A DNA stretch of 64,000 bases, from assembly GCA_000004985.1 (NCBI GenBank), contig GG738915.1. One strand, 5' to 3'. The notes beneath the pieces are model-generated. The model had not been told where the DNA came from. It saw only the letters and a list, made by a program, of their open reading frames with translations, and did not search any database. The DNA comes from Naegleria gruberi. Lineage: Eukaryota. Below are positions 357-30,495 of the stretch, piece by piece. Position 1 is the stretch's first letter. Every line of letters begins with the position of its first letter. The translations under genes and the position numbers were made by a program.

Positions 357-956
357 GTTCTAAAATAGAATTCTTCTAAACCCAACCTTCAAACCCTAGC
401 CCAAAATTATAAACTTATTCAAATATCATTAAATTTTATATCATTCGATAGGAAATGATGAGTAGAACAACGTGGTATATTTAGTTTTTCAATTTATAAA
501 ATATTAACTTTGTAAATAATGTCAGATTAAAATTTCTAAAATGAAACTATAGGAAGAATGATAATTTCAAAATCCTTTAATGAGATTATATAGTATATAT
601 CATCATTAACAACATTCATAATCACTTTCATATCAAATTTCTAAAATTCAAGTCTGTAGACATAAAAGTATGAAGTGAAAAGGGAAGTTGTGAGGTACAA
701 TAGGTCAATAATAACTTCTGAGTTTCTCATCAAAGCATATTATATCCTGATATGAAAATGTTCCATTTGATGAGTAAACATCGAATATCAAATTTATTTT
801 GACATTTATATTTAAAGATTTCTTCCCTCAACCATCATATGGTAAACTATGATGAAAGGATGAAATCTTGAAAAAGGACCTCTATTGAAACTTTACCAAT
901 ATGATTTAGATGACCTATAATAATGTAGAATTCAATTTCATATCATANNNNNNNNN
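357..956. repeat. Subtelomeric unit, copy A (unique AT-rich sequence immediately internal to the telomere array; truncated by the N gap)
   Basis: Bases 357 to about 790 are roughly 90% identical to 3881-4309 (copy B), with the same order of motifs: ttctaaaatagaattcttctaaaccc ... gaaatgatgagtagaacaacgtg ... gagtttctcatcaaagcatat. Confidence 0.75.
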
Positions 957-3510
957 NNNNNNNNNNNNNNNNNNNNNNNNNNNNNNNNNNNNNNNNNNNN
1001 NNNNNNNNNNNNNNNNNNNNNNNNNNNNNNNNNNNNNNNNNNNNNNNNNNNNNNNNNNNNNNNNNNNNNNNNNNNNNNNNNNNNNNNNNNNNNNNNNNNN
1101 NNNNNNNNNNNNNNNNNNNNNNNNNNNNNNNNNNNNNNNNNNNNNNNNNNNNNNNNNNNNNNNNNNNNNNNNNNNNNNNNNNNNNNNNNNNNNNNNNNNN
1201 NNNNNNNNNNNNNNNNNNNNNNNNNNNNNNNNNNNNNNNNNNNNNNNNNNNNNNNNNNNNNNNNNNNNNNNNNNNNNNNNNNNNNNNNNNNNNNNNNNNN
1301 NNNNNNNNNNNNNNNNNNNNNNNNNNNNNNNNNNNNNNNNNNNNNNNNNNNNNNNNNNNNNNNNNNNNNNNNNNNNNNNNNNNNNNNNNNNNNNNNNNNN
1401 NNNNNNNNNNNNNNNNNNNNNNNNNNNNNNNNNNNNNNNNNNNNNNNNNNNNNNNNNNNNNNNNNNNNNNNNNNNNNNNNNNNNNNNNNNNNNNNNNNNN
1501 NNNNNNNNNNNNNNNNNNNNNNNNNNNNNNNNNNNNNNNNNNNNNNNNNNNNNNNNNNNNNNNNNNNNNNNNNNNNNNNNNNNNNNNNNNNNNNNNNNNN
1601 NNNNNNNNNNNNNNNNNNNNNNNNNNNNNNNNNNNNNNNNNNNNNNNNNNNNNNNNNNNNNNNNNNNNNNNNNNNNNNNNNNNNNNNNNNNNNNNNNNNN
1701 NNNNNNNNNNNNNNNNNNNNNNNNNNNNNNNNNNNNNNNNNNNNNNNNNNNNNNNNNNNNNNNNNNNNNNNNNNNNNNNNNNNNNNNNNNNNNNNNNNNN
1801 NNNNNNNNNNNNNNNNNNNNNNNNNNNNNNNNNNNNNNNNNNNNNNNNNNNNNNNNNNNNNNNNNNNNNNNNNNNNNNNNNNNNNNNNNNNNNNNNNNNN
1901 NNNNNNNNNNNNNNNNNNNNNNNNNNNNNNNNNNNNNNNNNNNNNNNNNNNNNNNNNNNNNNNNNNNNNNNNNNNNNNNNNNNNNNNNNNNNNNNNNNNN
2001 NNNNNNNNNNNNNNNNNNNNNNNNNNNNNNNNNNNNNNNNNNNNNNNNNNNNNNNNNNNNNNNNNNNNNNNNNNNNNNNNNNNNNNNNNNNNNNNNNNNN
2101 NNNNNNNNNNNNNNNNNNNNNNNNNNNNNNNNNNNNNNNNNNNNNNNNNNNNNNNNNNNNNNNNNNNNNNNNNNNNNNNNNNNNNNNNNNNNNNNNNNNN
2201 NNNNNNNNNNNNNNNNNNNNNNNNNNNNNNNNNNNNNNNNNNNNNNNNNNNNNNNNNNNNNNNNNNNNNNNNNNNNNNNNNNNNNNNNNNNNNNNNNNNN
2301 NNNNNNNNNNNNNNNNNNNNNNNNNNNNNNNNNNNNNNNNNNNNNNNNNNNNNNNNNNNNNNNNNNNNNNNNNNNNNNNNNNNNNNNNNNNNNNNNNNNN
2401 NNNNNNNNNNNNNNNNNNNNNNNNNNNNNNNNNNNNNNNNNNNNNNNNNNNNNNNNNNNNNNNNNNNNNNNNNNNNNNNNNNNNNNNNNNNNNNNNNNNN
2501 NNNNNNNNNNNNNNNNNNNNNNNNNNNNNNNNNNNNNNNNNNNNNNNNNNNNNNNNNNNNNNNNNNNNNNNNNNNNNNNNNNNNNNNNNNNNNNNNNNNN
2601 NNNNNNNNNNNNNNNNNNNNNNNNNNNNNNNNNNNNNNNNNNNNNNNNNNNNNNNNNNNNNNNNNNNNNNNNNNNNNNNNNNNNNNNNNNNNNNNNNNNN
2701 NNNNNNNNNNNNNNNNNNNNNNNNNNNNNNNNNNNNNNNNNNNNNNNNNNNNNNNNNNNNNNNNNNNNNNNNNNNNNNNNNNNNNNNNNNNNNNNNNNNN
2801 NNNNNNNNNNNNNNNNNNNNNNNNNNNNNNNNNNNNNNNNNNNNNNNNNNNNNNNNNNNNNNNNNNNNNNNNNNNNNNNNNNNNNNNNNNNNNNNNNNNN
2901 NNNNNNNNNNNNNNNNNNNNNNNNNNNNNNNNNNNNNNNNNNNNNNNNNNNNNNNNNNNNNNNNNNNNNNNNNNNNNNNNNNNNNNNNNNNNNNNNNNNN
3001 NNNNNNNNNNNNNNNNNNNNNNNNNNNNNNNNNNNNNNNNNNNNNNNNNNNNNNNNNNNNNNNNNNNNNNNNNNNNNNNNNNNNNNNNNNNNNNNNNNNN
3101 NNNNNNNNNNNNNNNNNNNNNNNNNNNNNNNNNNNNNNNNNNNNNNNNNNNNNNNNNNNNNNNNNNNNNNNNNNNNNNNNNNNNNNNNNNNNNNNNNNNN
3201 NNNNNNNNNNNNNNNNNNNNNNNNNNNNNNNNNNNNNNNNNNNNNNNNNNNNNNNNNNNNNNNNNNNNNNNNNNNNNNNNNNNNNNNNNNNNNNNNNNNN
3301 NNNNNNNNNNNNNNNNNNNNNNNNNNNNNNNNNNNNNNNNNNNNNNNNNNNNNNNNNNNNNNNNNNNNNNNNNNNNNNNNNNNNNNNNNNNNNNNNNNNN
3401 NNNNNNNNNNNNNNNNNNNNNNNNNNNNNNNNNNNNNNNNNNNNNNNNNNNNNNNNNNNNNNNNNNNNNNNNNNNNNNNNNNNNNNNNNNNNNNNNNNNN
3501 NNNNNNNNNN
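957..3510. other. Assembly gap (2554 N)
   Basis: A run of n. All ORFs spanning it in the track are artefacts. Confidence 1.
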
Positions 3511-3880: not shown

Positions 3881-4309
3881 CAATTCTAAAAATAGAATTC
3901 TTCTAAACCCAATGTTCAAACCCTAGCCCAAAATTATAAACTTATTCAAATATCATTAAATTTTATATCATTCGATAGCTAATGATGAGTAGAACAACGT
4001 GTTATATTTAGTTTTTCAATTTATAAAATATTAACTTTGTAAATAATGTCAGATTAAAATTTGTAAAATGAAACTATAGGAAGAATGTTAATTTCAAAAT
4101 CCTTTAATGAGATTATATAGTCTATATCATCATAAACAATATTCATAATCACTTTCATATCAAATTATAAAAGTTCATGTCTGTAGATATAAAAGTATAG
4201 AGTGAAAAGGGAAGATGTGAGGTAAAAGAGGTCAACAATAACTTTTGAGTTTCTCATCAAAACATATTGAATCCTGACATGAAAATGTTCCATTTGGTGA
4301 GTATACATC
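3881..4309. repeat. Subtelomeric unit, copy B (truncated by a 50-N gap at 4310-4359)
   Basis: About 90% identical to 357-790. Confidence 0.75.
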
Positions 4310-4359
4310 NNNNNNNNNNNNNNNNNNNNNNNNNNNNNNNNNNNNNNNNNNNNNNNNNN
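4310..4359. other. Assembly gap (50 N) inside the subtelomeric EGF-repeat gene
   Basis: n run. Confidence 1.
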
Positions 4360-6379
4360 AGTAAGATGTTTCATTCATAGAAATATTATTAAAAGTAATG
4401 TTACTAATAATTGTGCTATTTTGTGGTATAGTAACATTACAACTTAATCCAGTGAAACTCTCTTTGCACTCACATGTATCATTCATTGTACAATTACCAT
4501 TTCCTGAGCAGACAGAACTATTACTATTCAGAACACCAAAACACGAAACTAGTAAATAAATTTGTGAGGACTCAGCAGAGACGTTACTGTTAATAATGGT
4601 ATTGTTGATAGTGGGTTGAAGGAGGGGAGAATTTACATCCGTTTCATTAGTGTTGGAAGTTGAGTTATGAGAAGAGTTATTGTTCATTTTGGTTTCGTTG
4701 AAATAAGCAGTATCATTTAAAGAAATATAGTTCAAACTACTGTTGGTTATTGATTTGCTAGGGTTCATTTTGGTTTCATTAAAGTGCACTGTATCATTTA
4801 AGGAAGTGGTATTTACAGTATTATTACTCAAAGAAATATAATTTGAAGTGCCATTAGTTATTGATATGTTGCTCATTATAGTTTCGTTAAAGTAAGATGT
4901 TTCATTCATAGAAGTATTATTAAAAGTAGTGTTAGCAAAAGAAATATTGCTAATAATTGTACTATTTTGTAAAATTGTCACATTACAACTTAATCCAGTA
5001 AAATGAGATTTACACGAGCATGTATCATGCATTGTACAGTTACCATTTCCAGAACATACTGAACTATTGGTATTCAGAATACCAAAACAATTATAGAAGA
5101 AGCAATCATTTCCAAAATATCCACTTTCACAGGTACAATTGTTATAAAAGCTGCAATCTCCATGACCTGAACAAACCTTTGAATTATTAGAAGAAACGCC
5201 ATAACAGGAAGTAAAGTGACATTCATCACCAGTGTAACCATCATTACAGGTGCAATTATTTGGGGATGAACATACACCACTTGAGGAACAAACTTGAGAC
5301 GAACTACCGAGAATTCCATAACAATTATGGTGTTGACACTCATTTCCAAAAAACCCACTTTGACAAGAACAATTATTTGGAGATGAACACAATCCTCTGG
5401 AAGAGCAGACACTGGAATTGTCAAAAGAAATTCCAGAACAGTCGTAATTTTGGCAATTATTGCCTGTAAAATCAAATTCACAATGGCAATCGTCTACTTC
5501 AGCACATATACCTCTTCCTAAACAAACTTCACTTGAATTAGAATAAATATCATTACATGTTGTAATTGAGCAATTAGAGCCATAATAATTTAAATAACAT
5601 GAACATGAATTATAATCAGTGCATGAACCATGTCCTGAGCAAACATCAGAATTTGTTTTTGGTACAGAGTAGCAATCAAAATTTTCACAATCAGGTCCAT
5701 AATAATTTGAAACGCAAGAACATGAATTATAATCTACACATATTCCTTTTCCTGAGCAAACTTCACTTGAATTAGAATAAATATCATTACATGTTGTAAT
5801 TGAGCAATTAGAGCCATAATAATTAGATGAGCAGCTACAAGTGTTATATGATGCACAAGTACCATGATTAGAACAGCCAGTTGTAAGAGAATTTGAATAT
5901 CCATTACAAGTCCAAGAAGAACAATTAGCACCTGAGTAACCATATGAACACGAACAATTGTTAACATCTATACAATTTCCATTTGAATTACAAACAGTGG
6001 AGTCATCAGATCTAATCGAGTAACAATAGGGTAGATTACAATAACCTCCACCATAATTTGCATCACACACCATGTAAATTTTTCTGAGTTCATCACTTTC
6101 TGCAATTAACATCAAGTTGTTATCGCTGGAAAAAGTCAAACCTACAAGTGTGTTGAACTTGGTATAAGCCAGAGTTTCTCCATCATTATATGTTCCAGCA
6201 CTATTACCAGCATAGGACGTTATTGTACCAGTGTTAGCATTGGCAGTGGCAGGTGTGAAAAGTTTAAGAGCACCACTCTCAGTGTAGTATACATTACCGT
6301 TGTCGTTTACATAAAAATCTTTGATGGCTACAGAAGAGGTCTTATTAAGTTAGTTTAAATAGTTCAATCAAAACTTACA
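4360..6379 (-). CDS. Partial gene for a secreted/surface-type protein. An N-terminal region is followed by about 10 tenascin-type EGF repeats (C-x-C-x2-G-[YF]-x-G-x2-C). Then come two near-identical copies of a segment (SVCSGNGNCTM.DTC.CK.SFTGLSCNVTI) embedded in a very NxS/T-rich (N-glycosylation-sequon-rich) Ser/Asn/Thr region. The 3' end is lost in the 4310-4359 gap, and the 5' end is lost in the 6386-6435 gap.
   Basis: The ORF at 4232..6139 in the track begins with TTG, not ATG. The same frame stays open upstream to a canonical minus-strand intron (GTAAGT at about 6378-6373 ... TCTGTAG ending at about 6328), which joins a further upstream exon fragment at 6379-6385. An internal 200-nt DNA duplication lies at 4360-4560 versus 4880-5090. 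The part of the track ORF at 4232-4309 lies in the subtelomeric repeat and is probably not coding. Confidence 0.6.
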
Positions 6380-6385
6380 GTAAAA

Positions 6386-6435
6386 NNNNNNNNNNNNNNN
6401 NNNNNNNNNNNNNNNNNNNNNNNNNNNNNNNNNNN
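6386..6435. other. Assembly gap (50 N) at the 5' end of the subtelomeric EGF-repeat gene
   Basis: n run. Confidence 1.
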
Positions 6436-6439
6436 ATAT

Positions 6440-6930
6440 CATGGTATGTAGACACTCTAATTAGTATGTGGTATCAATTTCATGAATATTGGTTCAGTAG
6501 ATGTCGAGGTGTCAACTCTATCAATTTACTATAGATATTTGACATGATATCATAGATTATACTCCAAATCACTCATTTTACGTATAACAAGTCTAGAATT
6601 GATACCACATAGTCTATATATCAATTAAATACATCTACAATAGTTAAGAAACATTTCAAACTATTTTCATAAAATTAATCAGTAAATGTTCAATATCAAC
6701 ATTATATATATCCTAGTGAACACTCCATCTCAGTGAAAGTTATTCCAATCATTCTGTAACTTTACCCAATACGTTTAGTCACACTATTATACATCTGGTA
6801 TCAATTTCATAGTTTTAGAATTGAATTCAATATGATAATAATAACAATCTTTCAAAATATCACATTTCAAAAAAGAGATTACACTCCATCTCAGTCAGTT
6901 TACAAAATATCATACTAGTATCAAATATGA
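6440..6930. repeat. Degenerate short tandem/dispersed motif family: acactccatctcagt[cg]a (6717-6735, 6883-6901; third copy at about 9172-9190) and ggtatcaatttcat (6472-6485, 6797-6810), with roughly 160-325 bp spacing
   Basis: Exact 15-nt matches are seen in AT-rich non-coding DNA. No ORF support. Confidence 0.35.
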
Positions 6931-9900
6931 ATAGACTCCTCTTGATGAGGAGTACAATCTGAGAAAGTTTCAAATTGATGGCTCAGTATCTTCAAGTCAA
7001 CTAAGTCAACCTTAGAATAGACAAGTCAATTAAGTACATCAAGTCAATAATTGAAAATTGAAATATAGTATATTTATTAAATATTAATAGGACTCTTCTA
7101 AATAACTATATTGTTTAAATCAATATTTGTAAAGTTGTCAACACATCATGTCACAGATCATACTCTTTCTCAATAAATACTTGACTAAATCAATTGAAAT
7201 TGACATAGAGTTGTTTATATGTAGTACTGAATATGTTATATCAATATCTTTTAAAATTGTCAAGTATTAAGGAAGATCTAAAAAAAATAAGGTGGTTATA
7301 ATGAATAAGTTAGTAAAATCACCTTGAATCGATCACTCGTCCCTTAATTGACGATCCGGCATACAACCACTGAACCAACAGTGTTATAGCTGTAATTTCT
7401 AGAAATGCTTCATATGAAGAACCAAGTGGTTGTATGACCTGGAATTGTCGGCTTCTATTAAGAACAACAATTAACAAAATAACAACAAGAATTGTATCAT
7501 TATATGATAATAACAATAATTTATTAAACAATATGGAAGGGAGAAGTTGCTCCCTCACCAAATGATGGAGGGAAGATTCAACTTGATGAACAAGAGATGG
7601 TACCTCCACCATCTACTTAAATTCAGTATCATTGAAGATTATCCTGATGATCTTGATAAATAGATTCATACATCGGAAAAGTGTTGGAAGCAGAGTAATT
7701 TGGCGTTGTATTTTGATAATCGTAATATTTTAAAGGGTTAAAAATGGAGTTAATTAATGCGATTATCAAAATAATGGCTTTAAATCCATGGCTATTAGCA
7801 CTGCCAACAAGCAAATTGTGGAGTGAGAAACATTACCACTTCCACCTAATATTAATAAATATTATTTACTTGTTCCTTAATGATCTTAATGATATCGGAA
7901 TAAGTGCGCACCGCAATTAAAGATAGTTTCACACTTGTTCAACACAGCTATTAAGCAATAGAAAATTAACAAGTTTAACACCAATTCAAATACAAAATAC
8001 TCAACAATTACTGAATTAAATGCAAATATCCCAACGTCATTTTGTAGAGAATTAAGTTGAACCTATGCGATTTTTCACCTTTTGCCAAATGGTTGCGTAT
8101 CTAGCAAGCCCCCCCAAGAGAACAAAAAACACAGAAATATTGAGGTAAAACGAGTTGATTATCTACATTATTTGATAGCAACCAATATTAAAATTATATA
8201 TCAGCATGTAGCCGTGAACATTTCCTATCTAATGATATATATCGATGTATATGAAGTCTTATAAATAATGATGTTTTAAGAGCGCAGATTAATATCCAAA
8301 CCCTAGTAAAATGTTGAGTTTCACCAAAATAAAGATATTTCCAAGACATAGAAATCACCCATACTATTCTACTATATTAAATATATCTATGATGACGGTT
8401 GGTGAGTGTTCCGAGGATGGTTTACCAACTTGAAAAATTATAATCCAAAAATTGATTTACTATTTTATGATGAAAGTCCAATAATAAAAATTACTACTAT
8501 TACTACTATTTAGATGATGTTGAGATGATGATGTGAAAGTTTGGCAGCTTACGGATGTGAAACCACTCGAAGAATCATCAAAGTACATCACGTACTAGAT
8601 GTTGAAATATTTTTTCACATATTCGCAACTGAACAAACAAACCTTGCTTCAAAAAATCAACCAAACTCTAGTAATACCTTGCTTGGTTTTCGTTCCAACA
8701 ATTCAAGCCAAACAACACAAGAGAATCTATTTAATATAATTGGAAAATTCAATTTTATTAAATGTATCATTCAATTTATCGGTGTTACTAAGGTTGTGCA
8801 TTTTCCATTTTGGTTTACCGTCATCAGTATTAAGCGGATGCTCTTCTCCCGTCTGTAGTAAGAAACTGAGTGTTCTCCGTCTCATCCGTCCCCCGTTTCA
8901 CCGTCACTTAGTACCATCTCCTATTTAGATGATATAATGATGACTCTCCATTGTAACATGCATGTGAAATTGAATGTTGACACTTTTCATCTTGTTATAT
9001 TTATAGAGATGCTATCCAACAGAGTCAGTTCACAATATTAAATATTGAAACTCATTCTGTATGACATGTTTGATGTATAGAACGGTTTTTTATTGAATGT
9101 AATCAGTTTGAAATAATTTGATGAAACTGACACTGTCAGGTCACCATTTCATGACAAATAGACCATAGTTTACATTCCATCTCAGTCATTTCAACGAGTT
9201 ATTGATTAATTCCACCACCATTATGTTTCTCATACATTGTAGTACAGTTAATATTTCAAGAGTGATTTCTGTGTAGATTAGTATAATCGTAATACCTTGC
9301 CATACCAATAAAACTCAATAGAAGAGTTAATTCTTCTCATTTTCAAATAGATTATTCAATATAGAACACATATAGATAGTTTCCAGATCATAAAAGTCAA
9401 GATACTATATATGGTCTTTGATTAAATTTAAAAATAGACTGCCGTTAATTACTGGAATATTAATTCAAAGCTTGATGATAAAGCTATTGATTGAAATCAA
9501 ACCGATTATTGAATATTGATCATTGAATTGGTGAATAATCACTCTTGATAATGTTACTTATTCATATTGCATGCAAATCAACCTGATTCAATCTACAAAG
9601 GTTGGTAGTTGCACCACTTCGTGGCGAAACTACCCATCCACGATCAATCAACATTAGATTCACTTCCATTCAACTCAATTTGACCGTTATAATCAATAAA
9701 TCAATGAAATGTTACTTTATTAGCAATACCTATTCAATCTAATGAGTAGATTCACGTCCCAAACATTTGAATTCTCAAAGTCCATAGTTCAAAAGTTAGT
9801 ACTGACCTGACCTTTAAATATCTATCAATACAAGAAATTAAAACATCAAATTTACATCAATAATAGATGATAAGAAATATAATCAATGATATGAATCTTC

Positions 9901-10275
9901 ACTAAGTAATATCTTAAATAACCCAAATAAATCAACTCTGAATCCTAACCAAACCCTGAGCCAAATTAAAATAATTTCAAAGAGTAAACTTGCGTAATAC
10001 TATTTAAATTAACCTGTTCCAACAACATCCGAGATGTATTTATTGATTTGAAATTTTTCTAAAGTGATGATGATATTAAATTTCTTGACGATTAAAATTT
10101 CAAACAATAAAATTACTATTCGTGTATCCAAATATGATGTACATTGAATATCAATGTTTTCCATATTGAAATGATGAGATAATCAGCAATGATGAAGTGA
10201 TTATTTTTTTTTCAACTTTGAAAAATGTTAAGGAATCTTAATTAGTTCTTTATTCGATATTAATCGCCTAGACAT

Positions 10276-13200
10276 TTAAACCGATTTCAGTTCAACTCCT
10301 TGTTTTGATTCATTACTGGTTTCTGGTTTCATTTTCTTAACAACATACCAACCAACAATTCCCAATACAATAAAGGCAAAAATGATAAAGCAAATAATCA
10401 AGAAAGACCACAAAATCCAGAATAAATCAGAGATTCTCTTTGGAGTTTCAGGATTAACCGGTTTTTCAATTGGAATAGATGATAAAATACCAACTCTAAC
10501 ATTTTCTGAACATTCACAGTTTCCATAATTAGTATTGAAAGAGAATTTACATGAAGAAGCATCAATGACTTGACCGTTTGTAACTTGAATGCATGAATAA
10601 GTTGCCTTATCATTAAAGGTTTGTGTAAGTGGCAAGGAGTGAGTAATTGGTGAGGAATAGTTTGTAATAGATGTTGAGAATTTAATTTCAGACAAATCTG
10701 AAACAATAGTATTAGTTTTACCATCTTGAGGAGTAATAATTTGAGAAACATCCTTAATAATCATCCAAATGTAATTGACTGGCTTTCTGAGAGACACGCT
10801 TTGTAACCTTTGAGAAACAGTTGAAGGAAGGGTCAATGAAGTTTTACTTTCTGTCAATACTTGAGAATCAAAAGTATTCTTAAATTGCTTGTTGAATTGA
10901 TGAACTGCAAAATTAGTTTCAAACTTGGAAGAAGATTGACCAACAAGAACCTTTCTTGAAAGTAATGATGCCAACATGTGACAACTTTCCATCAATTCTG
11001 AATAATCATAAGAAGGTAAAGTCTTTAAGTACGAATGCATTGAGTTGAGTGATGAAATTAACAGCTTATCAGCACCGACTTCAACTTGGAATGATGGAGA
11101 ATTTTCAGCATCATCCAAGGTTGACCTGATAATATTCAAACTCTTATTATAGAGATTGGCAGAAACGTCACTCTTCAATAAAGATTCAACACCGAACATT
11201 ATGTTAGTAAAGAACTTTCCAGTTGTCTTTTCTCCATTTTCAGACTTGACTTGTTGAGAAGAGAAGAATGCAGTTGCCAAATCTTGATTAATTCCATTCA
11301 AAATTTCATAATCTTTCTTTGTCATTCTACAGTCAGATGTTGTGTAATCTTCCTCACATACACATTTTTCTTTAATCAAAAATCCATGACCAGAACAATC
11401 AGTCCTTACACTTCTTGATGTAGTTGTGAGGAAGGAATCTCTCATTCTCTGGAAAGTTCTTGAAATGGTTGCAGAGTTGAAAACAGATCTAGCATAATCA
11501 CCAGATGGTAATAATGAGGAGATGGCATTCCATTTTGTAATGTAATCCTTGACTTCCATGACATTTTCTACGGACGGAGCTGTAATTTGAACTGATTGTT
11601 TGGAAAGAGTTGTTGCAAGTGTTTCAGTATCAATAACCTTAACATAAAGTTCAAGATTATTGCCAGAATTTGGAGTTGGAAGTTTTTGATACAATTCTTC
11701 ATCCTTGGATAAGGAAATAAAAGAGCCTGAGAAATCATCAATGAAACCATATTCGAAAGCATAAGTCTTCTTATCGTTTTGACAATTTTCACAATTGAAA
11801 TTAAAGATTGTGGTCAAGGCAACACCAGAAGTTGGACTAATGGCACAACTACATGCCTTTGGAGGTCTGTTAACAGAGAAGGAATAAGAATATGATGTCT
11901 TTTGATTATTTCTATTATCCAAGACAGTTAATGAAATGGTATTAGAACTACCTTCATCCAAATATTGGGTATCCAAAATGAGAGAATTTGACAATGATGG
12001 ACTGCTGCTCATAGGTGATGTCAATACAGCATCAATGGCCTTATCATTCAATAACCATGTTCTAGTGATGAATTGATCAATATTTGAATCACCGTTAATA
12101 GTGACAACCAATTGAACGCTGACATAATCTCCCTTATTTACCTTTGAGGAAGATACTTGAACAACAGAGATCAAAGGTGGCATGATGACATTCTCTGCTT
12201 GTTGTGGTAAAATCAAATCAACTGATGATTGAACAGATCTACTTCCCTTTTGAATATTAAGGCTAATTCTAACATTTTCTGCTGAACCAACAATTGACTT
12301 TTCAATCTTGTATTGTTCAAGAACACCTTGAGATAAGTAATTTACAACAGCAGCTGGACAAGCAGTGTTTGTAACAGTATTCACACATGTCCAAGAATAA
12401 GTTGGTTGAACATTTTCAGACTCAGGATCAGTGAAATCTAATCCAATGGTACTGTATTGAGGAGTAGAATCTAAAACATACATGTTCATTGAGAGTGCTT
12501 GAGCTACAGTGTTGATATTGACCTCAGCCGTTGAAACTCTGTCAATATTAGAAGTATCGAAAGCAGAGACTTTGAAAACATATTGAATATTTCCAATGGT
12601 ATTGAATTTGGTAATCTTTAAATTCTTGAATGAATCAACTGCGAATTCTACTTGAGGACCACTTATTTGTTTCCATGTGTAGTCAATATTTGCAGCAGAG
12701 TCCATGTATGTTGGAATGGAAAGCTTCTTCTTGACTGAAATTGGAACATCACTAGTCTTGACAGTAATTGTACTTCTTTCATATAAACCATCAATGGAAA
12801 CAACTGGAACAGCATACGCAAGTTTTGTGAAACTGACTTGAATCTTATCAACCAATGAATAAACTTGACTGGTTACGGCCAATTCAAATTTATGGAAACC
12901 AGCATTCATACCAGAATAGCTAACATTCAATTTACTTGGAGAAACAAGAGATGTATCCAACAAGTTTTGAAGTGCTACCTTATTAGGTGCTAACAATACA
13001 GTCCATTTGAAATTTAATGCCTTTCTATCAGGTGAATAACTTTCAGAAGCATCAATTAAAACATCTTCACAACTTCCATAAGTTTCCTTAGCTCCAGAGA
13101 TTGTGGCAATTGGTCTTTTTGGTGATAAAGCAGCCTGGACGGTAAATGCCAAATATTGAACCGCGGTATTATTTGATTCAAAGTATAAATTATTCAAAGA

Positions 13201-16200
13201 GATACTATCACCTGCCTTCAATTTGTAATCAGAATCAAGTTCAATTGAGAATTCAAAGGTTTCCTTGTTAGTCCAGTAACATTTTGGTTTGGTTCCAAGA
13301 AGATCAACACTCTTCAACAACTTGTTACAATCAAGAATCATACTATTGGTATATGTAGAAGAATAAGATGCAGGTGCAACAACCTTAAATTTCAAACCAG
13401 TCAAATCATCCATAAAAAGAACTGGTCCAATAATCTTGGTTGAACACAATTCACCATAAACTCCATCAGCACATGAGGAACAAGATTCACCCTTCCAGAA
13501 ACCCTTCTTGTTATCAGCAAAACAAGTACATTGTTCAAGATCATTACAATAACCATTTCCACTGCAAGTTGTTGTGGCATTACATTTAACCAAACTACTA
13601 CACATAGAACCAATGTATGGAGAAACACATACTGAACAAACTGAACCAGTCCAAAAACCCTTGACAGCTGTACTATCACAAACACAAGTATTAAAGTCTG
13701 TACATTTACCATGTCCAGAACAAACAGATGAAGCATTAGAAGAAATGCCACCACAAGTGAATTGAGCACAATCACTTCCAGAATATCCAGGTTGACAAGA
13801 ACAATGATCGAAAGAATCACATCTACCTTTTCCAGAACAAGCTGATGCAGTTGAGGAAATTCCAAAACAATTAAATTGGCTACAATCATTACCAAAATAT
13901 CCAGCTGAACAGGAGCAATTATTTGGAGAATTACAAGTACCATTACCAGAACAAACAAAGGCATTGCTTGGGGCAATACCAAAACATTTGAAAGAACTGC
14001 AATCTGATCCACTGTATCCACTTGAGCAGGAACAGTTATTTGGGGAGATACAACTACCGTGATTTGTACATACTGATGCACTAGTTGAGGCAGTTCCATA
14101 ACAATCAAATTTTCGACAATCATTTCCGTAGTATCCACTTGAACAGGAGCAGTTATTTGGTGAGATGCAACTACCATGTCTAGAACAAACTGAACCACTT
14201 GTTGAGACAGTTCCATAACAATCATATTGAGTACACTCGTTCCCATAATATCCAACTAAACACGAACAGTTATTTGGTGAGAGACAACTACCATGTCTAG
14301 AACAAACTGAACCACTTGTTGAGGAAGTTCCATAACAATCATATTGAGTACACTCATTTCCATAATAGCCTGATAAGCATGAGCAATTATTTGGGGAGAT
14401 ACAACTTCCGTGATTAGAACATGATGATGTATTTGTGGAGGCAGTTCCATAACAATCAAATTGGCTACAATCACTTCCATAGTATCCAGAGACACATGAA
14501 CAATTATTTGGTGACAAGCAACTACCATGTCCTGAACATGCTGAACTTGTTGATACATTTCCATAACAATCAAATTGACTACAATCATTTCCGTAATAGC
14601 CTGATGAACATGAACAATTATTTGAGGCAACACAACTACCGTGTCCAGAACAAACTGAACCACTCGTGAATATAGTTCCATAACAATCAAATTGGCTACA
14701 ATCATTTCCATAATATCCAACTAAACATGAACAGTTATTTGGGGAGATACAACTCACCATATCTAGAACAAACTGAACCACTTGTTGAGGAAGTTCCATA
14801 ACAATCATATTGAGTACACTCATTTCCATAATAGCCTGATAAGCATGAGCAATTATTTGGGGAGATACAACTTCNNNNNNNNNNNNNNNNNNNNNNNNNN
14901 NNNNNNNNNNNNNNNNNNNNNNNNNNNNNNNNNNNNNNNNNNNNNNNNNNNNNNNNNNNNNNNNNNNNNNNNNNNNNNNTGCCATAACATTGGAAAGAGC
15001 TGCAATCTGATCCACTATATCCAGCTAAGCATGAGCAGTTATTTGGTGAGAGACAGGCACCGTGTCCAGAACATACTGAACCATTTGTTGAGGCAATTCC
15101 AAAACAATCAAATTGACTACAATCATTTCCATAGTGGTCATTAGAGCATGAGCAATTATTTGGTGAGATACAACTTCCTTGACCAGAACAAGCTGATGAA
15201 GAAGTAAATAAGGTACCAAAACATTCATATTGGCTACAGTCACCAAAGTAACCTGAAGCACATGAACAATTATTTGGGGCAATGCAACTACCACGACCAG
15301 AACAAACTGATGAACTTATACCTGGGGCAATTCCATAACATTTGAATAAACTACAATCTTCACCACTGTATCCAGATGAGCAGGAACAACTGTTTGGAGC
15401 AACACAACTTCCATGTCCTGAGCAAACTTTGCGGTCAGTATTCAAATAATCACCACATGTAAAAAGTTGACAGTTTGAACCAGAGTAAGTGGTAGATTCG
15501 CAGTCACAAGTATCAGTTTTTGTACATGTTCCGTGACCTGAGCATACAGTAGAGTTGTCACCTGAAATTCCATTACATGTTGGATATTGACAAGTATTAG
15601 GAGCAACACATGTGGCATATGTTGGACATGCTTCTGGATGTGTGGCCACGATACCATTACACTTTGGAGTTTTACATTCACTACCTCCCCACAAAACACC
15701 ATAATTTGTCAAATCATTTACAGAAGGAAAACCGGTAATTGACTCGGCATTTAACGTAAAGCAATGATCTTAGAAAATTGTTTGTGAACAAAGTTAAAGC
15801 TTAATTACTTACCAGTGGAGGAATAAACAACCAAATGGCCATCGACTTGAAGAACAAATTTAAAAGGTCCAGTATGGGTACCACAATCATTTTTTGGATC
15901 AAGAGTGGTAATCAAAGAAGCACCATCCATAATCTTTAGAGAACCATCATCTTGGCTGAGCACAAGCTTGTAGCCACCATTTTTTGCAGGACCCACTGAT
16001 CTTTGAAAGTTTTTCATGAAAACACCCTCATAAAATTGAGAAAGACTTCCATCATTGTTCAATGTAAGTGCAATTTTTCCATCAGCAGATGTTAATGTGT
16101 TCGTTGCGAGGAGAATTGGCGACTCAGCAGTAAGGGCTGTAGAAGGGGAAATATCAACACAAAGACAATTATCATTTCCGAAGCAAATATTACCGCCACA

Positions 16201-16302
16201 AGTAGAAGTGTTTGTTCCTGGAATGCCATAGCATGTTGAAGCTGAAACCTCACTCACAATGAAAAGCAAGAGGATTGCCAACACTGAAAAGAACAGTTTC
16301 AT
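10276..16302 (-). CDS. Giant type-I membrane adhesion-type protein. It has a signal peptide and a bulb-type (mannose-binding, B-lectin) domain. About 30 tenascin-type EGF repeats follow (each about 31 aa, e.g. CSGHGSC.SPNNCSC.SGYYGNDCSQFDCYG), then a beta-rich extracellular region of about 900 aa, a TM helix (LFWILWSFLIICFIIFAFIVLGIVGWYVV) and a short cytoplasmic tail. It is interrupted by a 105-N gap (14875-14979) and an apparent frameshift near 14750.
   Basis: Exon 1 (16302..15813) encodes MKLFFSVLAILLLFIVSEVSAS, then a B-lectin domain with QxDxxL-type motifs (LSQDDGSLKI, QVDGHLVVY). A GTAAGT donor begins right after ...SSTG, and a 44-nt intron (15812..15769, ...TTTTCTAAG) joins in phase 1 to exon 2. 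Exon 2 is in frame with track ORFs 14735..15712 and 10276..15015. The EGF cysteine spacing is read directly from the translation. 14290-14404 and 14760-14874 are near-identical at the nucleotide level. Confidence 0.7.
14875..14979. other. Assembly gap (105 N) inside the EGF-repeat array of the giant lectin-EGF gene
   Basis: n run. Confidence 1.
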
Positions 16303-17001
16303 GTTGTGAATTTTTAATCTTCGAATTTTCAAATTGAATGATTTAACTTTGGCTTATTGAAAAACAAGGACCAATTATGGAAGAATTAATAATGTGCTTA
16401 ATGTTACTAAATAATACTACAGCTAAGGATGCAGAAAAGACCCTATTGATTCAAGTTCATCACAGCATGTGCTAAGAATCAAGCTATAACCATTCCATAT
16501 TTTGCTAGGGCATTATTAAAATCCCCTAATTTGTAGGCAAAAGGTTTATTATAGTAACTCGAGTTCTGTCGCTGCAGTGTTTCTTTTAGTATAGAGCTAC
16601 AAAATAGTTTGGAATTCGATAATATACCTAAATTTAGACCTTGTTTTCGCCTTAATAATTTTTTAATAAATCCATGCTAACGGGAATGAATTGGCTTGTT
16701 GAGGAGTGATTGAGGATGGATAAAAAACAATCAATATTACCTTCTGAACATTGAAACGTTGCTAGTACTTGTAATATTGAAACTGCTCGAAAAACAAATT
16801 GTTATTGTCATGAAAGAGACGAGGCACCAAACACCTTGTGTTCACCACTTTTCATGTTGCTTTGTTGGTGCTCTATTTGGTGAGATACATTACTATATTA
16901 TAATTGCTGTAAATCTACTACAGTAGACTAATTGTGCTTGCAAAATAGCACTTGTGTTTTGAATTTTCAATAATGGTCTCGTTTTGGCATGCCAACACAA
17001 A

Positions 17002-28658: not shown

Positions 28659-28977
28659 ATATTTCTCCTCATTATATATCAAATACATTAAATAATCAAT
28701 TTATATTACTGTTCTTTTCCCGATTGTTCCATAATATGTTCTTCAATACAATAGGACCTTTTACCATTTCCAAGTTACTTTTCAATATTGATGAGAATCA
28801 ATTCTCTCTCATAATCTAGATAGCAAAGCTAGTTTTTTTCAGTTTTTGAAAAAAAAAGTACCGTAATTAATTCTTTGGGCGGCAAAAAGTTCATCAGTGA
28901 AATATTAAACATCTCTTTTAAAAAGAGCGCGCAGAAACAACACAGTGAACCCATCTCAAAAGAAATATCAAAAAAAA

Positions 28978-30351
28978 ATGCAAGACATTGAATTAAGAGA
29001 TGGTATTAAGGCCTCTGGGTCGGTACATCAGGAAGGACCTATACAACTTCAACAACACACTTCACCTGTTCTTACTAAGGTGGAGATTCAACAAATATCA
29101 CCTCCTCGTAATAAGAGTATTCTGTCCAAAGTTTTATGTGGTTTGTGCATTACCTTTGTTGTTTGCTTGTTGATTTTGGTGTTTTTGGTAATTGCAGTCT
29201 TTTTAATTGCTTGGTTTGTAAGTAGGATTGAACAATTTTATTGATAAACTTACGGATCCATATTTCATTGGCATATTTTCTAGGGTGGAGGAGCCTTTTT
29301 ATGGGATTTTGCCTTCAAACCAGATAAAGAATCAGATTGTTTCAAGGCGATGAGAGACAGTAGGCCTTGGAATTATACCTTGGTTGATATTGTTGATTAT
29401 TGCGAACCTATTGCGGAGAATATCAACACAACAGAATATTTTGCACCTTACTTTATTCCATCTGTTTCGAATTTAATTGAAACAGTAACTTTTAAATCAC
29501 GTGATCCTGATTGGGTTGCCACAGGAAAGGGAAATATTGTTGGTACATTTATTCCTCAACCTTCTATCAATAGTAATAGCAAGTTTATTATTGTCATTCA
29601 CGGAATTAGAACATGTAGATTCACTTATGCTTCATTGGAACCAGCCTCAATGTTATATAGAAAGGGATATAATTTACTCTTAATTGATTTGAGAAATCAT
29701 GGAGATTCGGATGACTATGATAAAAACCCTTATGGCAGCTTTGGATATTACGAACATAGAGACGTTTTGGGTGCTTTGGATTATCTCACCAAACGTTTCA
29801 CATTCTTGGATACTCAAACACCAGATGTGTCATTATTTGGTAGCTCTATGGGAGGTGCTACAGCCATTGTTACTTTTGCAAAGGAGAAGAGATTTAAATT
29901 ACTCTTCACTGACTCTGCACCATGTGATGTGTACAAGACCTTATTCACCAATGCAGTCTCTGTAACTGGTTCTGAATCATTTGCCCAGACTGCAATTCTA
30001 AGTACAAAATCTGTTGCCTTAGTGAAAGGAAATATGGGATTCCCTCCATTCCCTCTTGATCCAGAAACACTGATGAAAGAAGTGGACTTGTCAGGAGATA
30101 GAAGAGTATTCTTCTTCCAAACTAGTGGAGATTGGATTGTTCCAGATTACAATATGCAAATTTGTGTCGATGCTGCTAGAGGTGCTGCTACCAAACAAAA
30201 CCTCAATCCAGATGAAAAGGTCAAGTCCTACATGCACACAGTCCAATACCCAACAGGAGTACCAACCTCTCGATTCTATTGTGCCAACCATTTAGTTTCC
30301 ATGTTTAACAATGCTACCATGTACAATCAATTGTTAAACTCATTCTTTTAA
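28978..30351 (+). CDS. Membrane-anchored alpha/beta-hydrolase, two exons: 28978..29217 and 29284..30351, with a 66-nt intron GTAAGT...TTTTCTAG
   Basis: Exon 1 encodes a TM anchor (LCGLCITFVVCLLILVFLVIAVFLIAWF). Exon 2 carries the nucleophile elbow GSSMGG and an HG..DSDD region. The splice is in frame (phase 0). The true ATG lies 33 nt inside the track ORF, after an A9 tract. Confidence 0.7.
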
Positions 30352-30495
30352 TAAAAACCATTCAACGTCATTCATCCAATATCTGTGCCAAACATTCATG
30401 TGTCTCTCCAACAGTTCTTGAAATTCCTTTTTAATTCAATTGAAAATCAAGTAAATTTCACAAGCCAAATATCTTGCGAGTTTAGCTTGGAAAAA

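What the first reader, a model, noticed from the sequence alone, without database searches (positions are those of the whole stretch)
10276..16302. A 44-nt intron fuses a bulb-type lectin exon to a roughly 30-repeat EGF array and a TM anchor
The ORF track shows the lectin domain (15805..16332) and the EGF protein as separate ORFs. The lectin ORF stop codon is created by a canonical GTAAGT donor (ACTG|GTAAGTAA). A 44-nt intron ending TTTTCTAAG then restores, in phase 1, exactly the frame of the downstream 1900-codon ORF. The predicted product is: signal peptide, B-lectin, EGF x about 30, a beta-rich region of about 900 aa, a TM helix and a 20-aa tail. This is a carbohydrate-binding adhesion-receptor architecture that I do not recognise as a described family.
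Basis: partly seen in the sequence, partly recalled or inferred. Interest (0 to 1): 0.6.

Follow-up and report, generated by a model that had tools for sequence, protein, structure and literature searches.

The report
Naegleria lectin-EGF-REJ-GAIN surface receptor gene
The predicted 44-base intron is real, but it is already part of the public Naegleria gruberi gene model, which encodes a single-pass surface receptor that resembles the sea-urchin egg-jelly receptor and polycystin-1 and carries an unusually variable lectin-like tip.

Summary
The window is Naegleria gruberi NEG-M DNA. A related Naegleria contig (L001) supports it: a 47-nt intron at the same site leaves 1330 codons open.

It is not new. 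GenBank EFC37713.1 / XP_002670457.1 (NAEGRDRAFT_74515, "predicted protein", 1913 aa) uses this splice.

Three details are wrong:
- The downstream "1900-codon ORF" is two ORFs in different frames. They are separated by a 105-N assembly gap and a one-base insertion at 14755. The public model hides both inside an artefactual 241-nt intron.
- There are about 20 EGF modules, not 30.
- The "beta-rich 900 aa" region is PKD-like plus REJ (Pfam E 1.6e-25), one EGF, and a GAIN domain. The AF2 model has pLDDT 84, and its top seven PDB matches are all GAIN domains. The GPS site lacks its nucleophile.

The bulb-lectin assignment is probable, not proven. Pfam misses it, but solved bulb lectins match at E 3.7e-6.

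The closest described analogue is sea-urchin REJ1.

One observation is new. The lectin head is about 50% identical between the two strains (dS about 0.9), while the rest of the gene is 93-98% identical at the protein level (dS 0.02-0.1).

The parts
10276..16302 (-). Whole coding region of NAEGRDRAFT_74515 (EFC37713.1). My corrected model is 1993 aa, including about 35 unknown residues across the assembly gap.
16240..16302 (-). Signal peptide MKLFFSVLAILLLFIVSEVSA (residues 1-21)
   Evidence: Hydrophobicity scan, translation. It is nearly identical in the L001 allele.
16153..16239 (-). N-terminal two-thirds of an EGF-like module (Cys 24, 35, 40, 46, 48). The sixth Cys is probably C195 in exon 2, which would place the lectin-like domain inside the C5-C6 loop (inference).
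   Evidence: The first 28 profile positions weakly match every EGF repeat of the array. The flanks CLCVDIS and YGVLWGGS.C.TPKC are conserved between the alleles.
15731..16152 (-). Bulb-type-lectin-like (beta-prism II-like) domain, residues about 51-176, interrupted by the intron. It has one near-canonical mannose-site motif, QVDGHLVVY (QVDGNMVIY in the L001 allele).
   Evidence: PDB phmmer: pyocin L2 at 2.6e-4, plus neoculin and garlic lectins. Profile against PDB: 1bwu at 3.7e-6. hhalign against snowdrop lectin is collinear over 95 columns, P 3.5e-4. Pfam B_lectin gave no hit.
15769..15812 (-). 44-nt spliceosomal intron, phase 1, GTAAGT...TTTTCTAAG
   Evidence: A 47-nt intron sits at the same site in L001. 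The same splice is used in EFC37713.1.
15620..16258 (-). Hyper-divergent island between this strain and the metagenome strain. It covers the end of the signal peptide, the lectin head, the intron, the linker and the first degenerate EGF.
   Evidence: Lectin core: dS 0.91, dN 0.53. EGF array: dS 0.08-0.11. REJ region: dS 0.023. Upstream 350 nt are 94% identical. Baseline for another locus is 96.5%. BLAST finds no nucleotide match across 16078..15868.
13438..15661 (-). Array of tenascin/teneurin-type EGF modules (residues about 200-940): 17 complete and 1 degenerate, plus whatever lies in the gap
   Evidence: Pfam EGF_2 1.1e-57, EGF_TEN and EGF_Teneurin. Regex and cysteine count.
14875..14979 (.). 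105-N assembly gap inside the EGF array
14755..14755 (-). Single extra G (GGT-G-AGT) that shifts the frame. It is absent from every paralogous repeat in the window and from L001, so it is a probable sequencing or assembly error, or a very recent mutation.
14836..15076 (-). Second 'intron' of the public model (241 nt, GTATGT...CAG). It is an artefact that skips the gap. The 27 residues that follow (AIMEMSVLNMIVMELPQQVVQFVLDMV) are an EGF repeat read in the wrong frame.
   Evidence: L001 is continuously open through the equivalent region.
11422..13437 (-). Ig-like/PKD-like domains and REJ module (residues 941-1612). The Pfam REJ hit covers residues 1277-1590, which is 12429..11488.
   Evidence: Pfam REJ PF02010, E 1.6e-25, 90.1 bits against a cut-off of 25. 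K319L-like PKD is a weak hit.
11329..11397 (-). Single EGF module between REJ and GAIN (residues 1621-1643)
   Evidence: Pfam EGF_Teneurin, AF2 model. The same position is occupied in homologues P0050 and P0035.
10468..11319 (-). GAIN domain (residues about 1647-1930): a five-helix subdomain A and a beta-sandwich subdomain B
   Evidence: AF2 pLDDT 84.3, pTM 0.72. The top 7 Foldseek PDB hits are all GAIN domains, led by BAI3 4dlo at E 1.6e-12, TM 0.54-0.59.
10483..10593 (-). Degenerate GPS motif CIQV...C...CECSE-N-V-RVGIL. The four cysteines are conserved, but the canonical H-L|T is replaced by E-N-V, so there is no nucleophile.
   Evidence: Alignment A3: C275, C289, C300 and C302 are invariant across 18 homologues, several with canonical CxCNHLTxF. 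Pfam GPS hits at the aligned site in P0050 and P0035.
10357..10425 (-). Transmembrane helix (residues 1945-1967)
10276..10356 (-). Cytoplasmic tail of 26 residues ending ...GVELKSV, plus the stop codon
   Evidence: A C-terminal (V/I)EL(K/R)xV motif is shared with Naegleria paralogues.

Best explanation
The locus is one two-exon Naegleria gruberi gene, already deposited as NAEGRDRAFT_74515 / EFC37713.1. It encodes a type-I surface glycoprotein.

Shown:
- A 44-nt phase-1 intron joins exon 1 to one long exon.
- Exon 1 encodes the signal peptide, the first five cysteines of an EGF module and most of a bulb-lectin-like domain.
- The long exon encodes the end of that domain, about 19 tenascin/teneurin-type EGF modules, PKD-like and REJ modules, one more EGF, a GAIN domain, one TM helix and a 26-residue tail.

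Inferred:
- The protein works like sea-urchin REJ1 or the polycystin-1 ectodomain. A distal sugar-recognition head sits on a long, rigid, disulphide-rich EGF/REJ stalk, which is anchored through a GAIN domain directly above the membrane.
- The GPS site reads E-N-V instead of H-L-T, so the GAIN domain is predicted not to self-cleave and to act as a structural or ligand-docking module.
- The short tail has a C-terminal ELKSV-type motif shared with paralogues. This suggests that signalling or sorting goes through a partner protein rather than through the protein itself.
- The head is the specificity determinant. Paralogues keep the EGF-REJ-EGF-GAIN-TM chassis but carry other heads, such as NHL propellers.
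- Between two closely related strains, only the head has diverged deeply. This fits recognition of variable ligands (prey or bacterial glycans, or other Naegleria cells).

The break in the reading frame at 14755 and the N gap are most likely defects of the draft assembly in a repetitive array.
For: Organism and public model:
- Five window ORFs match N. gruberi proteins exactly.
- EFC37713.1 maps as 16302..15813 + 15768..15077 + 14835..10279.

Intron:
- Sequence.
- L001 has a 47-nt intron at the same site, with 1330 codons open after splicing.
- There is no in-frame ATG in exon 2 before residue 885.
- HC(F/L)TL and YGVLWGGS.C.TPKC are conserved across the junction.

Domains:
- Pfam EGF families and REJ at 1.6e-25.
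- GAIN by AF2, pLDDT 84.3, and Foldseek, where the top seven hits are GAIN domains and the best E is 1.6e-12.
- GPS cysteines are invariant, and homologues carry Pfam GPS at the aligned site.
- Lectin-like head: the PDB hits are mostly bulb-type lectins, with E 2.6e-4 for the single sequence and 3.7e-6 for the profile. hhalign against snowdrop lectin is collinear.

Family:
- 192 representatives at E<=1e-3. The top hits are N. gruberi paralogues and one N. lovaniensis protein.
- Paralogues have NHL heads.
- No other member has this head.

Divergence:
- dS is 0.91 in the lectin core against 0.02-0.11 elsewhere.
- The flanks are at baseline divergence.

Analogy:
- The GAIN cleavage mechanism, in which H836 is the general base and T838 the nucleophile (PMC3321182).
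Against: - No transcript data were available, so splicing rests on comparative and annotation evidence.
- Pfam B_lectin is not detected.
- The AF2 model of the head is unreliable (pLDDT 52) and gives no fold match.
- In this strain the one good sugar-site motif has Asn replaced by His, and the other two motifs are degenerate, so carbohydrate binding is unproven.
- If the frameshift at 14755 is real, the gene is broken in NEG-M.
- dN/dS in the head is 0.58, not above 1, so positive selection is not shown.
- Only two alleles are known. Two further scans for more found none.
Confidence: 0.8

Rival explanations
1. There are two separate genes: a small secreted lectin of 165-175 aa that ends at the TAA at 15805, and an independent EGF-REJ membrane protein downstream.
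For: The raw ORF list shows them as separate ORFs. The prokaryotic gene caller used on the metagenome also called the lectin ORF alone, as P0001.
Against: - The stop codon is part of a canonical GTAAGTAA donor in both strains.
- The downstream frame has no ATG for 720 codons and no signal peptide of its own.
- Conserved residues after the last lectin motif, and the probable sixth cysteine of EGF1, lie in exon 2.
- The intron lengths, 44 and 47 nt, both shift the frame by exactly the amount needed.
- The public eukaryotic model splices them.
Confidence: 0.03
2. The gene is a recently inactivated pseudogene in strain NEG-M. The extra G at 14755 is real, so translation stops at 14735 after the lectin head and about 12 EGF modules. 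This would give at most a truncated secreted protein.
For: As assembled, the sequence carries the frameshift. The public model can only avoid it with a 241-nt intron and 27 wrong-frame residues.
Against: - The insertion lies 120 nt from an assembly gap, inside near-identical 96-117-nt repeats, where draft Sanger assemblies often err.
- Every paralogous repeat and the L001 homologue lack the extra base.
- The 1579 codons downstream are still open.
- They show dN/dS of 0.33-0.40 against the other strain.
Confidence: 0.12
3. A second short intron (37 nt, 14757..14721, GTGAGT...TTTAG) restores the frame, rather than a sequencing error being responsible.
For: Removing these 37 nt does give an open frame of 1982 codons. 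GTGAGT is a good donor.
Against: It would delete GSCISPNNCSCL, which includes three cysteines of an otherwise perfect EGF module. The equivalent sequence in L001 and in sister repeats is plain coding sequence without the extra G.
Confidence: 0.03
4. The divergent head does not reflect selection for diversity. It would be a cassette copied in from a diverged paralogue by gene conversion in one strain, or an artefact of metagenome assembly.
For: dS as well as dN is high (0.91 and 0.53) and dN/dS is below 1. This fits an old, separately evolved sequence being swapped in. The boundaries are sharp. A Logan contig from the same run (L003) has an unexplained junction elsewhere in the gene.
Against: - Both flanks of the island in L001 match this locus at baseline identity of 94-97%, so L001 is collinear rather than a chimera with a distant gene.
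- No other protein with this head was found among the 5.8 billion searched or in the 150 family representatives.
Confidence: 0.3
5. The head has a beta-prism-like or other beta fold that has lost sugar binding, and it binds protein or serves only as a structural cap.
For: Pfam B_lectin is not detected. Two of the three QxDxNxVxY motifs are degenerate, and the third has Asn replaced by His in this strain. The structure model is poor.
Against: The L001 allele keeps a perfect QVDGNMVIY motif. Most of the PDB matches are bulb-type lectins and lectin-like bacteriocins.
Confidence: 0.3

Closest known systems
Sea-urchin receptor for egg jelly 1 (SpREJ1/suREJ1), PKD1/REJ family (PMC1934368)
   Same: It is a sperm plasma-membrane glycoprotein with N-terminal lectin domains, an EGF module, a REJ module and a GPS/GAIN element. 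It lacks the 11-TM channel-like block and has only one or two TM segments. Its lectin domains evolve unusually fast, as the lectin head does here.
   Different: SpREJ1 uses C-type lectin domains, whereas this protein has a bulb-type-like domain that appears to be nested in an EGF module. SpREJ1 has one EGF, and this protein has about 20. This protein comes from a heterolobosean amoeba. Its GPS lacks the cleavage triad. No function has been tested.
Polycystin-1 (PKD1) ectodomain
   Same: Lectin domain + PKD repeats + REJ + GAIN/GPS immediately before the first TM helix. The REJ Pfam hit is significant.
   Different: This protein has no PLAT/LH2 domain, no 11-TM region, no LRR/WSC/LDL-A modules, and no H-L-T autoproteolysis site. 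It has a single TM helix and a 26-residue tail.
Adhesion GPCR GAIN domains (BAI3 4DLO, latrophilin 4DLQ, CELSR1, GPR126; PMC3321182)
   Same: The fold is the same: a helical subdomain A and a beta-sandwich subdomain B carrying the four GPS cysteines, directly before the membrane.
   Different: This protein has no 7TM domain and no HormR domain. The general base and nucleophile are replaced (E-N-V), so self-cleavage and tethered-agonist signalling are not expected.
Bulb-type (monocot mannose-binding) lectins and lectin-like bacteriocins (garlic lectin 1BWU, snowdrop lectin, pyocin L1/L2), and Dictyostelium comitin
   Same: There is collinear similarity over about 100 residues and a QxDxNxVxY-type motif.
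   Different: The match is below the Pfam threshold. Only one of the three motifs is preserved. The domain is secreted and fused to a membrane receptor, not free like plant lectins or cytosolic like comitin.
Naegleria paralogues EFC45733, EFC38199, EFC47167, EFC46165, EFC38200 and N. lovaniensis KAG2381865
   Same: They share the collinear EGF array - PKD/REJ - EGF - GAIN - TM - short tail chassis, at 27-37% identity.
   Different: Their heads are NHL beta-propellers or other domains. None carries the lectin-like head.

Membership tests
Bulb-type lectin (Pfam B_lectin PF01453) | Match to the Pfam model above its gathering score | tested here: not met
   No B_lectin hit at E<=0.1 on the N-terminal 426 aa, or at E<=10 on either allele's head.
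Bulb-type lectin (Pfam B_lectin PF01453) | Significant sequence similarity to solved bulb-type lectins | tested here: met
   phmmer against PDB: pyocin L2 at 2.6e-4, and most of the 18 listed hits are bulb-type lectins or lectin-like bacteriocins. The two-allele profile gives garlic lectin 1bwu at 3.7e-6. hhalign against snowdrop lectin gives P 3.5e-4 over 95 collinear columns, but only 37% probability.
Bulb-type lectin (Pfam B_lectin PF01453) | Three-fold internal repeat, each with a QxDxNxVxY mannose-site motif | tested here: inconclusive
   The third motif is QVDGHLVVY here and QVDGNMVIY in L001. The first (NNDGSLSQF) and second (SQDDGSLKIM) are degenerate.
Bulb-type lectin (Pfam B_lectin PF01453) | Beta-prism II fold | tested here: inconclusive
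   AF2 with a two-sequence alignment gave pLDDT 52.5. Foldseek then gave no match with E<=0.001.
Bulb-type lectin (Pfam B_lectin PF01453) | Binds mannose or other sugars | not testable with these tools
   This needs recombinant protein and glycan arrays.
PKD1/REJ family | REJ domain | tested here: met
   Pfam PF02010, E 1.6e-25, 90.1 bits against a cut-off of 25, model residues 1277-1590. PMC1934368 states that possession of a REJ domain defines the family.
PKD1/REJ family | GPS motif within a GAIN domain next to the membrane | tested here: met
   The fold is met: AF2 pLDDT 84.3 and the top 7 Foldseek hits are GAIN domains. The four GPS cysteines are conserved, and homologues carry Pfam GPS at the aligned site. 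Pfam GPS itself does not hit this protein.
PKD1/REJ family | H-L-(T/S) autoproteolysis site | tested here: not met
   The aligned residues are E-N-V. The mechanism requires a Thr/Ser nucleophile (PMC3321182).
PKD1/REJ family | PLAT/LH2 domain and multi-pass (11-TM) region | tested here: not met
   There is no PLAT hit, one hydrophobic segment apart from the signal peptide, and a tail of 26 residues. The paper describes SpREJ1 and SpREJ2 as lacking the large TM domain and having either one or two TM segments.
Adhesion GPCR | GAIN domain followed by a 7TM domain | tested here: not met
   GAIN is present but only one TM helix follows.
Naegleria EGF-REJ-GAIN-TM paralogue family (uncharacterised) | Collinear homology across PKD/REJ, EGF, GAIN, TM and tail | tested here: met
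   phmmer gives E 2e-132 to 1e-60 against N. gruberi paralogues over query positions 1-1044. Identities are and the alignment is A3.
Comitin-type free lectin | Stand-alone lectin protein without a signal peptide or membrane anchor | tested here: not met
   A signal peptide is present, and the domain is spliced to a membrane protein.

The most novel reading that the evidence does not exclude
The lectin-like head may be a hypervariable recognition cassette kept as ancient allelic lineages within the N. gruberi species complex, on an otherwise conserved REJ/GAIN receptor chassis. This would make the gene a candidate self/non-self, mating or prey-glycan recognition locus in a heterolobosean amoeba. 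It would parallel the fast-evolving lectin domains of sea-urchin sperm REJ proteins and the polymorphic tgr recognition genes of Dictyostelium (the tgr comparison rests on my own knowledge). A side implication is that REJ-EGF-GAIN single-pass receptors with exchangeable heads would exist in Discoba (Naegleria's supergroup; taxonomy from my own knowledge). The library search found no paper mentioning Naegleria together with the REJ or GAIN domain.
Probability: 0.2. Interest if true: 0.7.

Novelty: new variant of a known kind. Interest (0 to 1): 0.35.

Why it matters
For the scan, the main result is a correction. The finding is a correct reading of a eukaryotic gene structure that has been public since the 2010 Naegleria genome, and the "unknown" 900-residue region is a recognisable REJ + GAIN module.

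Four points have value beyond that:
- The reference model EFC37713.1 contains an artefactual intron and 27 wrong-frame residues, caused by an assembly gap and a one-base error. This can be fixed.
- Naegleria has an expanded family of single-pass EGF-REJ-EGF-GAIN receptors with interchangeable heads. No paper in the searched library mentions Naegleria together with the REJ or GAIN domain, although GAIN domains are already known in Dictyostelium and Tetrahymena.
- This member has a unique bulb-lectin-like head whose divergence between two near-identical strains is roughly 10-40 times that of the rest of the gene. This makes it a concrete candidate for a polymorphic recognition receptor.
- Its GAIN domain lacks the catalytic residues, so it is a natural example of a non-cleaving GAIN domain outside animals.

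Tried and rejected
- **Word-index protein searches missed the gene's own annotation.** This affected the spliced N-terminus, the C-terminal 941 aa and the two-allele lectin profile. The gene's 90% cluster is represented by a 162-aa fragment, P0015. The annotation only surfaced through the exhaustive representative search plus the cluster listing.
- **AF2 of the lectin head failed.** The result was pLDDT 52.5, and Foldseek matches were meaningless.
- **No second copy of the head in the window.** tblastn of both head alleles against the window found none.
- **No other family member carries the head.** I searched the 150 family representatives with the lectin profile. The only other hit, P0133, is a bacterial PKD protein, so it is spurious. 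A snowdrop-lectin probe (sequence from memory) found nothing.
- **The 37-nt intron was considered and rejected.** It would explain the frame break at 14757 but would destroy an EGF module.
- **Literature searches found nothing.** Naegleria plus REJ domain, GAIN domain or bulb-type lectin gave no papers, and PRJEB11402 gave none. Naegleria plus polycystin gave 14 papers, none of which had Naegleria in the title or abstract.
- **The afdb50 fold library was unavailable**.

Full report
**Source of the window.** Five intron-less ORFs in the window are identical to Naegleria gruberi proteins on a 260,018-bp scaffold: EFC37716, the Mx protein EFC37672, EFC37718, EFC37719 and cyclin A EFC37678. The window is 34.6% G+C and contains five runs of N, so it is a draft assembly. 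Published statistics for N. gruberi NEG-M are 33% GC, 1.7 exons per gene and a mean intron length of 203 bp. For N. fowleri RNA-seq mapping, the authors set a minimum intron length of 30 bp, based on an assessment of predicted genes (PMC8296547).

**The observation.** The features on the minus strand are as follows:
- The ATG is at 16302, followed by 490 nt of coding sequence.
- The donor is ACTG|GTAAGTAA. Its GGT-AAG-TAA produces the stop of the 15805..16332 ORF.
- The intron is exactly 44 nt (15812..15769) and ends TTTTCTAAG.
- Splicing in phase 1 gives ...VVYSST-D-HCFTLNAESITGFPSVNDLTNYGVLWGGSECKTPKC..., which runs into the EGF frame.

I scanned all ORF pairs in the 64-kb window for GT[AG]AGT...AG joins that restore a frame. 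This found three other places: a 66-nt intron at 29218, a candidate at 31150, and the frameshift site discussed below. The configuration is therefore rare in this window.

**What is not as described.** The intron restores the frame of the ORF that ends at 14735, not of a 1900-codon ORF. That ORF contains a 105-N gap (14875..14979). It is then closed by a single extra G at 14755: TCT AGA TAT GGT **G** AGT TGT, where sister repeats read ...CAT GGT AGT TGT. The 1579-codon ORF (10276..15015) is in the +1 frame. Deleting that one base gives a 1993-residue model with no internal stop. A 37-nt GTGAGT...TTTAG "intron" would also restore the frame, but it would remove three cysteines of a perfect EGF module, so I reject it.

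**Comparative evidence for the intron.**
- The only close relative of the lectin ORF in 5.8 billion proteins is P0001. It lies on a 4.4-kb metagenome contig, L001, from sample ERZ929261.
- L001 is the same locus in a closely related Naegleria. Its upstream 350 nt are 94% identical to the window and its EGF/REJ part 97%. A cyclin A contig from the same sample is 96.5% identical over 3.7 kb.
- In L001 the lectin ORF also ends in G|GTAAGTAA. The intron there is 47 nt, with a CTAAC branch-site-like element and an AAAG acceptor.
- Removing it leaves 1330 codons open to the end of the contig, with no frameshift in the EGF array.
- The two intron lengths differ by three bases. Both give the same frame shift and both carry an in-frame stop.
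- The residues immediately after the junction, HC(F/L)TL, and YGVLWGGS.C.TPKC are conserved.
- Exon 2 has no in-frame ATG until residue 885, so it cannot encode a separate secreted or membrane protein.

**The gene is already annotated.** The exhaustive representative search returned a 162-aa fragment, P0015, that is 98% identical to the C-terminus. Its 90% cluster also holds EFC37713.1 / XP_002670457.1 / D2VZK0_NAEGR, NAEGRDRAFT_74515, "predicted protein", 1913 aa.

It maps to the window as 16302..15813 + 15768..15077 + 14835..10279. The public model therefore bridges the gap and the frameshift with a 241-nt GTATGT...CAG "intron". This intron contains all 105 Ns. After it, 27 residues (AIMEMSVLNMIVMELPQQVVQFVLDMV) are an EGF repeat read out of frame. 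L001 shows that no such intron is needed.

**Architecture** (residue numbers refer to my 1993-residue model):
- **Residues 1-21:** signal peptide.
- **Residues 22-50:** STCYGIPGTNTSTCGGNICFGNDNCLCVD has the cysteine spacing of the first five cysteines of the array's EGF repeats, and it weakly matches each of them.
- **Residues 51-176:** the lectin-like domain.
- **Residues up to 195:** the segment NYGVLWGGSEC resembles the ...KGFWKGESC end of the later EGF modules. I therefore infer that the lectin-like domain is nested in the C5-C6 loop of the first EGF. This is inference only.
- **EGF array:** 17 complete CxC-type modules and one degenerate one, plus whatever lies in the gap. Pfam gives EGF_2 at 1.1e-57 and the teneurin/tenascin EGF families. 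The window has about three more repeats than L001.
- **Residues 941-1612:** Ig-like/PKD-like domains and a REJ domain. Pfam PF02010 gives E 1.6e-25, 90 bits against a cut-off of 25.
- **Residues 1621-1643:** a single EGF.
- **Residues 1647-1930:** GAIN domain (details below).
- **Residues 1945-1967:** the TM helix, followed by the 26-residue tail ...KQGVELKSV.

**The juxtamembrane domain is a GAIN domain.**
- I aligned the last 379 residues with 17 homologues from the representative search (A3).
- AlphaFold2 gave pLDDT 84.3 and pTM 0.72. The model shows an EGF hairpin, five long helices, a beta-sandwich and the TM helix.
- The first seven Foldseek hits against the PDB are all GAIN domains: BAI3 4dlo (E 1.6e-12, TM 0.54-0.59, 280 columns), CELSR1, BAI2, latrophilin-1 and -3, and GPR126.
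- This matches the published description of the fold: a helical subdomain A and a beta-sandwich subdomain B containing the GPS (PMC3321182).
- In A3 the four GPS cysteines are invariant. Distant homologues carry textbook motifs, for example P0035 with C..W......W...GC...CSCNHLTSFAGF, and Pfam calls GPS at exactly that site in P0035 and P0050.
- In the window protein the aligned residues are CECSE-N-V-RVGIL. The general base His, the Leu and the Thr/Ser nucleophile are replaced by Glu, Asn and Val. From the published mechanism I predict no autoproteolysis. This is inference.

**The head.**
- Pfam does not call B_lectin.
- Against all PDB sequences, the best matches of the single sequence are pyocin L2 (2.6e-4), pyocin L1, neoculin and the garlic and other bulb lectins.
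- A profile of the two alleles gives garlic lectin 1bwu at 3.7e-6. Most of the 28 hits at E<=1 are bulb-type lectins or lectin-like bacteriocins.
- Much of the score comes from one motif, FKFVLQVDG(H/N)LVVYSS, which matches each of the three subdomains of those lectins.
- hhalign against snowdrop lectin (sequence from my memory) is collinear over 95 columns, but with only 37% probability.
- The L001 allele has a perfect QxDxNxVxY motif (QVDGNMVIY). The window allele has His in place of Asn. The other two motifs are degenerate.
- AF2 on exon 1 alone, with two sequences, gave pLDDT 52 and no meaningful fold match.

I rate "bulb-lectin-like beta-prism fold" at about 0.75, and actual sugar binding lower.

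**Family context.**
- The C-terminal 1054 residues find 192 cluster representatives at E<=1e-3 and 27 at E<=1e-30.
- The best hits are N. gruberi paralogues (EFC45733, EFC38199 at 4502 aa, EFC47167, EFC46165, EFC40952, EFC43847, EFC38200, EFC41344) and one N. lovaniensis protein.
- They share the EGF - PKD/REJ - EGF - GAIN - TM - short tail chassis.
- They have other heads. NHL propellers occur in EFC46165, EFC38200 and EFC38199.
- None of the 150 listed representatives has the lectin-like head.
- More distant relatives combine REJ-EGF-GPS with other heads. P0050 has RCC1 repeats, and its sequence continues for about 500 residues past the GPS with several hydrophobic stretches, which I read as a multi-pass region.
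- No paper in the searched library mentions Naegleria together with the REJ domain, the GAIN domain or bulb-type lectin.

**A hyper-divergent head.** I built a codon alignment of the window model and L001:

| Region | aa identity | dS | dN |
|---|---|---|---|
| Lectin core (residues 51-163) | 50% | 0.91 | 0.53 |
| Start of exon 2 (residues 164-209) | 56% | 0.62 | 0.36 |
| EGF array | 93-95% | 0.08-0.11 | 0.025-0.036 |
| Post-EGF/REJ region | 98% | 0.023 | 0.009 |

- The 350 nt upstream are 94% identical, and the first 45 nt of the CDS differ at one position.
- The island is therefore about 640 nt (16258..15620), with baseline divergence on both sides.
- Synonymous sites are also diverged and dN/dS is 0.58. 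This is not evidence of positive selection. It points to a much older coalescence of the head, either through long-lived allelic lineages or through a cassette brought in by gene conversion.
- No donor paralogue was found, and no further alleles.
- The parallel with sea-urchin REJ proteins is notable. [quoted passage not shown] It has C-type lectin domains, one EGF, REJ and GPS, and only one or two TM segments. The lectin domains of SpREJ1-3 are reported to be under positive selection (PMC1934368).

**Verdict.** The architecture is not an unknown family. It is a single-pass REJ/GAIN receptor of the polycystin-1/REJ kind, and one member of a family expanded in Naegleria. Three points go beyond the database entry:
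- the corrected model across 15076..14755;
- the recognition of the REJ + GAIN chassis, with a GPS that lacks its catalytic residues;
- the unique lectin-like head, which is strongly divergent between strains.

Function is inferred, not shown. My proposal is a sugar- or ligand-recognition head on a rigid stalk, signalling or sorting through partner proteins.

Noticed in passing
window 14836..15076 and 14755 (minus strand): The public model EFC37713.1 contains an artefactual 241-nt intron that swallows the 105-N gap. The 27 residues after it are read in the wrong frame, up to a one-base insertion.
   Followed up: yes
window 15620..14874 compared with L001 1039..1482: The window's EGF array is about 300 nt (three repeats, including the gap) longer than in the related strain. 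This is either copy-number variation or misassembly of near-identical repeats.
   Followed up: partly
window 4232..6139 (minus), with gaps at 948..3510, 4310..4359 and 6386..6435: There is a second teneurin-type EGF-array ORF with an N/S/T-rich spacer, on the same strand just downstream and broken by assembly gaps. It is probably another member of the same receptor family, in tandem.
   Followed up: partly
window 6140..10275: About 4 kb between the two EGF genes has no ORF longer than 105 codons on either strand. Its nature (long UTR, intergenic DNA, or a degenerate element) was not examined.
   Followed up: no
alignment A3, C-termini (window 10279..10299): The cytoplasmic tails of this protein and several Naegleria paralogues end in a shared (V/I)EL(K/R)xV-COOH motif. 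This could be a sorting or partner-binding signal.
   Followed up: no
L003 1..442 compared with window 10794: A Logan contig from the same sequencing run as L001 matches the gene's 3' end at 97.4%. Its first 442 nt are unrelated AT-rich non-coding DNA that ends ...CTCTCTCAG. This could be an assembly chimera, or an intron or rearrangement in that strain.
   Followed up: partly
window 29218..29283 (plus): A candidate 66-nt intron (GTAAGT...TTTTCTAG, phase 0) joins ORF 28909..29241 to the alpha/beta-hydrolase ORF 29284..30348.
   Followed up: no
window 37483..40602 (plus): One ORF combines a thiaminase-I-like N-terminal domain with a complete transketolase. This is an unusual fusion of two thiamine-related functions.
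   Followed up: no
window 30385..34622 (plus): Three consecutive ORFs of about 280 codons with no Pfam hit are followed by an ORF with a GSAP-16 (gamma-secretase-activating protein C-terminal) domain. They may be exons of one gene.
   Followed up: no
paralogues P0012, P0014, P0019 (EFC38199, EFC46165, EFC38200): These Naegleria family members combine teneurin-like NHL propellers and teneurin-type EGFs with REJ and GAIN. This mixes domain types found in teneurins (NHL, EGF) with REJ and GAIN in one protein.
   Followed up: partly
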